From: Malacoraja senta
Taxonomy: Eukaryota
Assembly: GCA_038087875.1 (NCBI GenBank)
Contig: CM075989.1
Span: forward strand, 2,790,001-2,854,000
Length of the DNA: 64,000 nucleotides
Direction: 5' to 3'
The translations under genes and the position numbers were made by a program. The notes beneath the pieces are model-generated. The model was not told the DNA's origin and did not search any database. It saw only the letters and a list, made by a program, of their open reading frames with translations. This document shows, in pieces, positions 4,190-4,401 of the stretch. Every line of letters starts with the position of its first letter. Position 1 is the stretch's first letter.

Positions 4190-4401
4190 TGTAAGAAGGA
4201 ACTGCAGATGCTGGTTTAAACCGAAGATAGACACAGAAAGCTGAAGTAACTCAGCGGGACAGGCAGCATCTCTGGAGAGAAGGAATGGGTGACGTTTCGG
4301 GTCGAGACCCTGGTCGGGTCCGGGTCTGAAGAAAGGGCTCAACCCGAAACGTCACCCATTCCTTCTCTCCAGAGATGCCGCCTGTCCCGCTGAGTTACTC
4401 C
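4190..4401. mobile_element. Penelope pLTR-derived inverted repeat with hammerhead-like motif
   Basis: Head-to-head arms of the GATGCTGCCTGTCCCGCTGAGTTACTCCAG family; GGGT-CTGAAGA..GAAACGTC-ACCC at 4322-4357. Confidence 0.75.

What the first reader, a model, noticed from the sequence alone, without database searches (positions are those of the whole stretch)
4322..4357. Minimal hammerhead-ribozyme motif in an abundant Penelope-derived short repeat family
Seen: the family consensus across copies is GT-CTGAAGA-A-GGGTC-TC-GACCC-GAAAC-GTC-AC(C). That gives core CUGANGA, stem II, GAAA, a loopless palindromic ACGU stem III and a GUC cleavage triplet. This copy has a 4-bp stem I (GGGT/ACCC) but a weakened stem II. 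Related motifs lie at ~5659, 6906, 8144, 11286, 14782, 16845, 20037, 22596, 57442, 58826 and 59731, many mutated. Established: Penelope pLTRs carry minimal type I hammerheads thought to act as dimers. Inference: the genome is seeded with short non-autonomous, ribozyme-bearing retroelements that could self-cleave host transcripts or form small circles.
Basis: partly seen in the sequence, partly recalled or inferred. Interest (0 to 1): 0.75.

Follow-up and report, generated by a model that had tools for sequence, protein, structure and literature searches.

The report
Penelope retrotransposon ends carrying decayed hammerheads
The hammerhead-ribozyme motif is really there, but it sits in the short cut-off ends of a Penelope-type jumping gene scattered about every 1.6 kb through this stretch of what is likely a shark, skate or ray genome, and this copy is predicted to be locked shut in a long hairpin, so it is likely ordinary transposon debris of a known kind.

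Summary
They are 5'-truncated 3' ends of a Penelope-like element (PLE), likely Neptune clade. Four copies adjoin GIY-YIG endonuclease remnants, three named homologues being from cartilaginous fishes. 3' ends fall in two classes about 35-40 nt apart (the PLE 'tail'); 5' ends are ragged; 28 of 39 span the cleavage site and none starts at it. The focal copy is one arm of a head-to-head insertion (4190-4401) flanked by a 14-bp target duplication. Its 4-bp stem I comes from the junction; the family has 2 bp. A 68-bp hairpin buries GAAAC-GUC, and opening it costs a predicted 34 kcal/mol. The core is conserved between source subfamilies but not after insertion. No core-bearing tandems exist, so these are not retrozymes. 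Solo minimal hammerheads, inverted ends, tails and duplications are all published PLE features. Cleavage and expression were not testable. Verdict: new member of a known kind, low interest.

The parts
4322..4357 (+). Minimal type I hammerhead motif: stem I 5' strand 4322-4325 (junction-derived GGG plus family T), core 4326-4332, weakened stem II, GAAA 4346-4349, palindromic ACGT 4349-4352, predicted cut after 4353
4324..4402 (+). Right arm of the insertion: PLE 3'-end fragment from -30 to +49 relative to the cut, 95% identical to the family model
4188..4311 (-). Left arm: inverted PLE 3'-end fragment from -21 to +103 with the full tail; lacks CUGAAGA; 97% identical to the model over -21..+94
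4312..4323 (.). 12-nt junction spacer made of GGTC/GGGTC-like repeats; no other source in the window within 2 mismatches
4242..4402 (+). 68-bp inverted repeat (4242-4309 / 4335-4402, 94% complementary), predicted RNA hairpin covering stem II, GAAAC, GUC and the 3' strand of stem I
4176..4189 (+). Left copy of a 14-bp target-site duplication; the insertion splits another high-copy repeat
4402..4415 (+). Right copy of the 14-bp target-site duplication
14687..15366 (-). Longest PLE remnant: broken GIY-YIG endonuclease 15366-15023, about 210-nt pyrimidine-rich spacer (pLTR), hammerhead 14808, full tail
4979..5745 (+). Older PLE remnant: endonuclease C-terminus 4979-5146, interrupted by about 290 nt, pLTR, decayed hammerhead 5659 and short tail
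16773..17098 (-). PLE end: last codons of the endonuclease ORF, pLTR with a candidate intron ending at CAG just before the core, hammerhead 16868, short tail
   Evidence: intron is inference
22234..22690 (.). Endonuclease remnant 22234-22380(-) next to pLTR, hammerhead and tail 22502-22690(+), inverted to each other, beside an assembly gap
8083..8303 (.). Second head-to-head insertion with a 14-bp duplication; arms share 6 subfamily letters; joined through the TCAG-N-CTGA palindrome; holds the only copy with intact core, 5-pair stem II, ACGT and GTC
63714..63881 (.). Third head-to-head insertion with an 11-bp duplication; neither arm has the core
11195..11336 (-). Copy with intact core, 3 of 5 stem II pairs, and a junction-derived GGGT stem I next to a short inverted piece

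Best explanation
The motif lies in a short, 5'-truncated 3' end of a Penelope-like retrotransposon, likely of the Neptune clade in a cartilaginous fish, and this copy is predicted to be inactive because it is one arm of a head-to-head insertion that folds into a 68-bp hairpin. Shown: 39 family pieces; endonuclease remnants adjoining 4 copies; two classes of 3' end; ragged 5' ends; 7 head-to-head pairs within 100 nt; a 14-bp duplication around the focal pair. Inferred from published PLE biochemistry: the element's RT-endonuclease nicks AT-rich DNA and starts reverse transcription inside its own uncleaved RNA, about 60-68 or about 103 nt downstream of the ribozyme cut. It usually stops within about 130 nt, so the hammerhead is copied only because it lies just upstream of the start sites. 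Inferred: the inverted pairs arise when both target ends are primed, or the cDNA folds back, and the products join through short palindromes such as stem II and TCAG-N-CTGA; in two copies this yields GGGT ahead of the core. The ribozyme likely works, weakly and as a dimer or with the element's protein, only in the autonomous element's RNA. Inserted copies decay neutrally, fastest at two CpGs in the core and in stem III.
For: tblastn with PLE homologues hits 15366-15023(-), 4979-5146(+) and 22234-22380(-). The 15163-15360 peptide scores 0.96 to a eukaryotic GIY-YIG cluster in the Atlas (18% of members carry PF01541). Of 8 homologues looked up, 4 are named from Hypanus or Leucoraja (3) and a crinoid (1), 2 carry whale-shark (Rhincodon) accessions and 2 are unnamed. 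Homologues with sequence upstream carry a C-x3-4-C-x2-C linker. 3' ends: 22 of 39 at +55..68, 9 of 39 at +91 or beyond, 8 elsewhere. Genome-wide, 978 contigs in run X1 and 781 in X2 break off at 4188 (+103) into unrelated, A/T-rich flanks. 28 of 39 span the cut and 0 of 39 start within 2 nt of it. Neighbours within 100 nt: 7 head-to-head, 2 tail-to-tail, 0 same-strand. Duplications of 14, 14 and 11 bp flank 3 of the 10 paired or inverted units tested. Hairpin -144.8 kcal/mol, z -15; 34 kcal/mol to open the ribozyme. Rare changes equal in core and tail; 18 of 27 copies lost one or both ribozyme CpGs. Same anatomy in PMC11167929, PMC8557442, PMC3846280 and PMC4209133.
Against: No RT-coding remnant and no full-length element lies in the window, and no genome was available, so an autonomous source is inferred from endonuclease remnants. 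35 of 39 pieces show no link to coding sequence, and summed contig depth over the tail is about 80 times that over a (diverged) endonuclease remnant; a short non-autonomous master copy could also give this. 14 of 39 5' ends reach -30 or beyond, where the model stops at -33, which looks like a boundary. Over all changes the core is better kept than the tail (p=0.006). 7 of 10 paired units and all single copies but one (9 bp) show no duplication longer than 6 bp, and 51 of 2000 random intervals have 11 bp or more. The Neptune linker was seen only in homologues. Folding is a prediction.
Confidence: 0.85

Rival explanations
1. A discrete non-autonomous short element (SINE-like or retrozyme-like) of about 135 nt, transcribed on its own and mobilised in trans by the PLE machinery.
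For: Very high density (39 pieces, 4.9% of bases); tail far outnumbers coding remnants; many copies begin near -33 to -30; the family is held by runs of several organisms; PLE-derived retrozymes are reported in one chondrichthyan (bioRxiv 2026.07.22.740005).
Against: 5' ends range from +53 to more than 550 nt upstream; at least 4 of the copies that reach -33 continue into pLTR or ORF sequence, and 5 others are inversion junctions; no core-bearing tandem closer than about 0.9 kb; copies differ by subfamily letters.
Confidence: 0.09
2. Some solo copies act as working ribozymes in host transcripts, cleaving as trans-dimers through the ACGU palindrome or with help from the PLE protein, and so cut pre-mRNAs or make circles.
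For: 8 of 14 core-spanning copies keep all 11 core letters; the isolated 36-mer folds both stems; an anole PLE hammerhead cleaves when its protein is added (PMC11167929); copy number is probably very high.
Against: Only 1 of 14 has core, 4 or more stem II pairs, ACGT and GTC together, and it is in a 92-bp hairpin (42 kcal/mol to open). Native stem I is 2 bp. Strands are balanced (20 vs 19; 9 vs 5 for core-spanning copies). No excess conservation of rare changes. Published monomers do not cleave, dimers cleave poorly, and 8 of 9 Xenopus dimers did not cleave.
Confidence: 0.05
3. The hammerhead resemblance is fortuitous: a palindrome-rich repeat that happens to match CUGANGA and GAAA.
For: No Rfam hammerhead hit; no stem II covariation above shuffles (1 compensatory cell of 126); the 36-mer folds no better than shuffles (z -0.09).
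Against: It has the extra base after A9, the G10.1-C11.1 pair, the palindromic 15.2-16.2 positions and the position in the pLTR after the endonuclease that PMC4209133 lists for PLE hammerheads; core letters differ less than the tail across subfamilies. Covariation is not expected among neutrally decaying sister copies.
Confidence: 0.01

Closest known systems
Minimal hammerheads (min-HHR) of metazoan PLEs (Cervera and de la Pena 2014, PMC4209133; parts 1-2 of 4 read)
   Same: CUGANGA core, extra base after A9, G10.1-C11.1 pair, no stem III loop with palindromic ACGU, location in the pLTR, mostly solo motifs in truncated PLEs, some opposite-strand pairs
   Different: Native stem I is 2 bp (as in D. 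virilis) instead of 4-5; stem II is 5 bp instead of 7-8; sharks, skates and rays were not named in the parts read or in 2 of 3 supplementary files searched
Poseidon PAc of Anolis (Frangieh et al. 2024, PMC11167929; parts 1-2 of 4 read)
   Same: Two 3'-end classes downstream of the hammerhead giving an optional tail, uncleaved RNA as template, AT-rich targets
   Different: The source here is likely Neptune-type (linker in homologues); ends at about +60-68 and +103 from the cut; nothing assayed here
EN+ PLE insertion structures (Arkhipova et al. 2013, PMC3846280, passages; Craig et al. 2021, PMC8557442, introduction and passages)
   Same: 5' truncation, head-to-head inverted copy, palindromes at the inverted junction, 30-40-bp tail on one arm, short target duplications
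   Different: Duplications of 11-14 bp against 8-10 bp in the rotifer; both arms here are under 130 bp; density of about one per 1.6 kb
Non-LTR retrozymes (Cervera and de la Pena 2020, PMC7229834, passages; Li et al. bioRxiv 2026.07.22.740005, parts 1-3 of 5)
   Same: Non-coding, type I hammerhead, related to PLE pLTRs
   Different: Retrozymes are tandem 150-450-bp units with canonical hammerheads that give circular RNA; these are solo or inverted, of variable length, with minimal motifs

Membership tests
PLE minimal type I hammerhead | Core CUGANGA, GAAA, NUH triplet | tested here: met
   Focal copy keeps all 11 core letters and GUC; 8 of 14 core-spanning copies keep the core
PLE minimal type I hammerhead | Extra base between A9 and stem II, G10.1-C11.1 closing pair | tested here: met
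   Family majority; closing pair GC 9, GU 3, other 6 of 18. The focal copy has A-C in register and G-C only in a shifted 3-bp register
PLE minimal type I hammerhead | No stem III loop, palindromic 15.2-16.2 | tested here: met
   ACGT in the focal copy and in 6 of 14 core-spanning copies
PLE minimal type I hammerhead | Stem I of 4-5 bp (2 bp in the D. virilis variant) | tested here: inconclusive
   4 bp in 2 of 14 copies, both at inversion junctions; 2 bp in 6; 0-1 in 6. Most copies genome-wide continue as CAG-T-CTGAAGA
PLE minimal type I hammerhead | Covariation in stems | tested here: inconclusive
   1 compensatory cell of 126, not above shuffles, in 18 sister copies of one window
PLE minimal type I hammerhead | Located in a PLE pLTR | tested here: met
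   About 210 nt downstream of the endonuclease stop in 14808(-) and 16868(-); also 5659(+)
PLE minimal type I hammerhead | Self-cleavage as a dimer or with protein | not testable with these tools
   No assay; only assembled contigs were offered, which cannot show RNA ends
EN+ Penelope-like element | [quoted passage not shown] | tested here: met
   15366-15023(-) has that motif, broken by a frameshift and a stop
EN+ Penelope-like element | Telomerase-like RT in the same ORF | tested here: inconclusive
   No RT remnant in the window by tblastn with 7 homologues; homologues P0072 and P0054 join RVT_1-like sequence to this endonuclease, below Pfam cut-off
EN+ Penelope-like element | 5' truncation, inverted 5' copy, optional 30-40-bp tail, target duplication | tested here: met
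Neptune (or Nematis) clade | Zn-finger-like Cx2-5CxxC linker between RT and EN | tested here: inconclusive
   Present in 6 of 8 homologues displayed; window remnants are cut off downstream of it; no tree was built
Non-LTR retrozyme | Tandem units, each with a hammerhead | tested here: not met
   0 of 9 neighbours within 100 nt are same-strand; nearest same-strand core-bearing copies are about 0.9 kb apart
Non-LTR retrozyme | Defined unit of 150-450 bp with a canonical hammerhead | tested here: not met
   Ragged 5' ends and a minimal motif with a 2-nt loop II
Non-LTR retrozyme | Expressed as circular RNA | not testable with these tools
   No raw RNA reads were offered

The most novel reading that the evidence does not exclude
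This lineage may carry on the order of a million PLE hammerhead-tail fragments. The small intact fraction could cleave host pre-mRNAs as trans-dimers or with the element's protein, while the frequent head-to-head pairs, joined through the ribozyme's own palindromes, would seed introns with 60-90-bp RNA hairpins acting like inverted Alu pairs (editing, small RNAs, back-splicing). That would be a vertebrate transcriptome shaped by ribozyme-bearing debris.
Probability: 0.07. Interest if true: 0.7.

Novelty: new member of a known kind. Interest (0 to 1): 0.2.

Why it matters
As read here it matters little: solo minimal hammerheads in truncated PLE ends, inverted ends, tails and duplications are published. 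It is a useful natural data set, though. A very dense family in which 3' ends, 5' ends, junctions and duplications can be counted would test how PLE head-to-head insertions form (two primed target ends versus fold-back) and whether the ribozyme is needed for transposition; the window already shows that templates were uncut at this site. If intact copies proved depleted on the sense strand of introns, it would show that minimal hammerheads cut host RNA in vivo.

Tried and rejected
Rfam scan at E<=5: no hammerhead family; the microRNA hits are just the hairpins. Own-genome search: no genome held. Word-based homologue search with the endonuclease piece: none of 2 candidates passed; the exhaustive search then found 615 at E<=0.001, whose top hit and several others are unrelated Cys-rich repeat proteins that I ignored (P0001 checked). 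Pfam found nothing in the window's own two endonuclease pieces. Metagenome scan for a tail motif: 0 matches. Three look-ups in earlier findings: nothing. Sequencing runs: no RNA holder listed; the two RNA-guess runs laid are contigs and say nothing on strand, ends or expression, and no listed contig bridged the focal junction. The joint skipping 4185-4419 comes most simply from other copies of the host repeat, so I do not count it as an empty allele. Idea that GGGT is a spliced-in exon that completes stem I: not supported, since the spacer has no other source in the window and both cases sit at inversion junctions; not excluded. Unconstrained cofolding of two motifs did not give the dimeric ribozyme; uninformative. 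Covariation: none above controls. Luense et al. (PMC5785218) was not held; I saw only its title and a review's summary. Searches for PLE hammerheads in cartilaginous fishes listed no paper on this family; most subscription papers and repeat databases are not covered, and one supplementary file of PMC4209133 and all those of the preprint were unseen.

Full report
Observation. The loose core pattern occurs 8 times against 2.55 expected, with 0 of 100 shuffles reaching 8, and all 8 matches lie in one repeat family. A profile from 25 window copies finds 39 pieces, 20 minus and 19 plus, and none in 5 shuffled windows; they cover 3110 bases, 4.9% of the window. Rfam gives no hammerhead hit among 13 matches at E<=5.

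What the family is. Upstream of the copy at 14808(-) lie about 210 pyrimidine-rich bases and then a broken ORF end, 15366-15023. Its peptide scores 0.96 to a eukaryotic GIY-YIG cluster and finds 615 proteins at E<=0.001. Of 8 looked up, 3 are named from Hypanus or Leucoraja, 2 have Rhincodon accessions, 1 is from a crinoid and 2 are unnamed; the host is therefore likely a cartilaginous fish. Six of 8 displayed homologues carry a C-x3-4-C-x2-C linker before the endonuclease, and three show RT-like sequence. Craig et al. (PMC8557442; introduction and passages) give such a linker as the mark of Neptune and Nematis PLEs. Endonuclease remnants also adjoin the copies at 5659(+), 16868(-) and, inverted, 22596(+). 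No RT remnant or full element is in the window, and no genome was held.

Ends. Relative to the predicted cut, 22 of 39 pieces end at +55 to +68 and 9 at +91 or beyond; 8 end elsewhere. Contigs of public runs break off at window position 4188 (+103) into unrelated, A/T-rich flanks: 978 in X1, 781 in X2, 174 in X15. The two classes differ by about 35-40 nt, the optional PLE tail. Frangieh et al. (PMC11167929; parts 1-2 of 4) tie this tail to two internal RT start sites downstream of the hammerhead and show that uncleaved RNA is the main template. In agreement, 28 of 39 pieces run upstream across the cut and none starts within 2 nt of it. 5' ends are ragged, from +53 to more than 550 nt upstream. 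Against this reading, 14 of 39 reach -30 or beyond, where the model ends; at least 4 of these continue into pLTR or ORF and 5 are inversion junctions, but a genome-wide count is lacking.

The focal copy. It is the right arm (-30 to +49) of a head-to-head pair whose left arm, 4188-4311(-), runs from -21 to +103 and lacks the first half of the core. A 14-bp duplication, 4176-4189 and 4402-4415, flanks the pair, so it is likely one insertion into another repeat. Two more pairs have duplications of 14 and 11 bp; 7 of the 10 paired or inverted units tested have none above 6 bp, and 51 of 2000 random intervals reach 11 bp. Of 9 neighbours within 100 nt, 7 are head-to-head, 2 tail-to-tail and none same-strand; an eighth head-to-head pair at 59704/59727 appears. 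The arms at 8091-8293 share six subfamily letters. Arkhipova et al. (PMC3846280; passages) describe the same head-to-head structures with junction palindromes, a 31-bp tail and 8-10-bp duplications.

Can it fold? The arms form a 68-bp, 94% complementary repeat. The predicted fold is -144.8 kcal/mol, z -15; GAAACGUC is predicted fully paired, and forcing the ribozyme open costs 34 kcal/mol, against 2.2 for the arm alone. The 4-bp stem I is not a family trait: it occurs in 2 of 14 copies, both at inversion junctions, the native form has 2 bp, and most contigs continue as CAG-T-CTGAAGA at that point. Stem II keeps 2 of 5 pairs. Only 1 of 14 core-spanning copies has core, stem II, ACGT and GTC together, and it is in a 92-bp hairpin.

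Selection. Non-CpG core letters differ from the model in 9 of 208 cells against 199 of 1976 in the tail (p=0.006). Counting only changes seen in at most two copies, within the 14 spanning copies, the figures are 6 of 140 and 32 of 801 (p=0.82). I read this as a core kept among source elements and decaying neutrally after insertion; the sample is small and local alignment favours matches at ends. Two CpGs lie in the ribozyme, and 18 of 27 copies have lost one or both. Stem II shows no covariation above controls. Strands are balanced, but the host gene, if any, is unknown, so this is weak.

Mechanism. Inferred: the autonomous element's protein nicks AT-rich DNA and copies its uncut RNA from one of two sites 60-100 nt past the ribozyme, usually stopping within about 130 nt. 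Priming at both target ends, or fold-back, then joining through short palindromes gives the inverted pairs. Junction overlaps seen are 0-9 nt; one uses the TCAG-N-CTGA palindrome, one a 10-bp tail palindrome and two are stem II-like. The ribozyme likely acts only in the source RNA. Cervera and de la Pena (PMC4209133; parts 1-2 of 4) found no monomer cleavage and low dimer cleavage, and already reported solo motifs from truncated PLEs across fish and amphibian genomes. Li et al. (bioRxiv 2026.07.22.740005; parts 1-3 of 5) saw cleavage in 1 of 9 Xenopus dimers.

Scale. Summed contig depth in X1 is 45 million over the tail, against 23-43 for contigs identical to unique window sequence. The tool warns that this is no copy number; with one piece per 1.6 kb it suggests only an order of 10^5-10^6 copies. 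Fourteen runs from 8 coded organisms share 26-56% of the words of 3000-8400, a stretch with several repeat families. Expression was not testable.

Verdict. Observation confirmed; interpretation partly supported. This is a new member of a known kind, a PLE minimal hammerhead in truncated insertions, and not a retrozyme. My searches listed no paper on this particular family, but repeat databases and most subscription papers were not covered. Interest 0.2. The bold reading, host RNA cleavage or a pervasive hairpin landscape, has about 7% probability.

Noticed in passing
window 16873-17090 (-), and upstream of 5659, 14808, 22596, 31128: A pyrimidine tract and CAG end just before the hammerhead core; in the 16873 copy a GTAAC at the ORF stop and a CTGAC near the end suggest an intron of about 200 nt, as the D. 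virilis intron ends at stem I (PMC4209133).
   Followed up: partly
window 15390-15470: A diverged hammerhead-plus-tail piece on the + strand at the 5' end of the endonuclease remnant, seen by eye and not among the 39 profile hits; it would complete a classic inverted PLE insertion.
   Followed up: partly
window 47113-50346 (+): Ty3/gypsy LTR retrotransposon remnant with gag, integrase, SH3 and chromo domains.
   Followed up: no
window 51682-55863 (+): Second LTR retrotransposon with long ORFs (protease, RT by Pfam; integrase-like by eye).
   Followed up: no
window 45237-46718 (-): 493-aa RT ORF of a LINE, CR1/L2-like by recalled motifs (Pfam RVT_1).
   Followed up: no
window 35857-37430 (-): ORFs resembling a DIRS-type element by recalled motifs; Pfam gave no confident hit.
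   Followed up: no
window 29550-30083 (+): hAT transposase dimerisation-domain remnant.
   Followed up: no
window 8543-10285 and 26100-26800: A 1.7-kb G/T-rich minisatellite open in all six frames, and a CA-rich simple repeat.
   Followed up: no
window 2142-3007, 7232-7748, 39724-40863: Long inverted pairs of another abundant repeat (arms up to 150 nt, about 80% complementary), which would also form RNA hairpins if transcribed.
   Followed up: no
window 22034-22233: 200-base assembly gap directly beside an endonuclease remnant.
   Followed up: no
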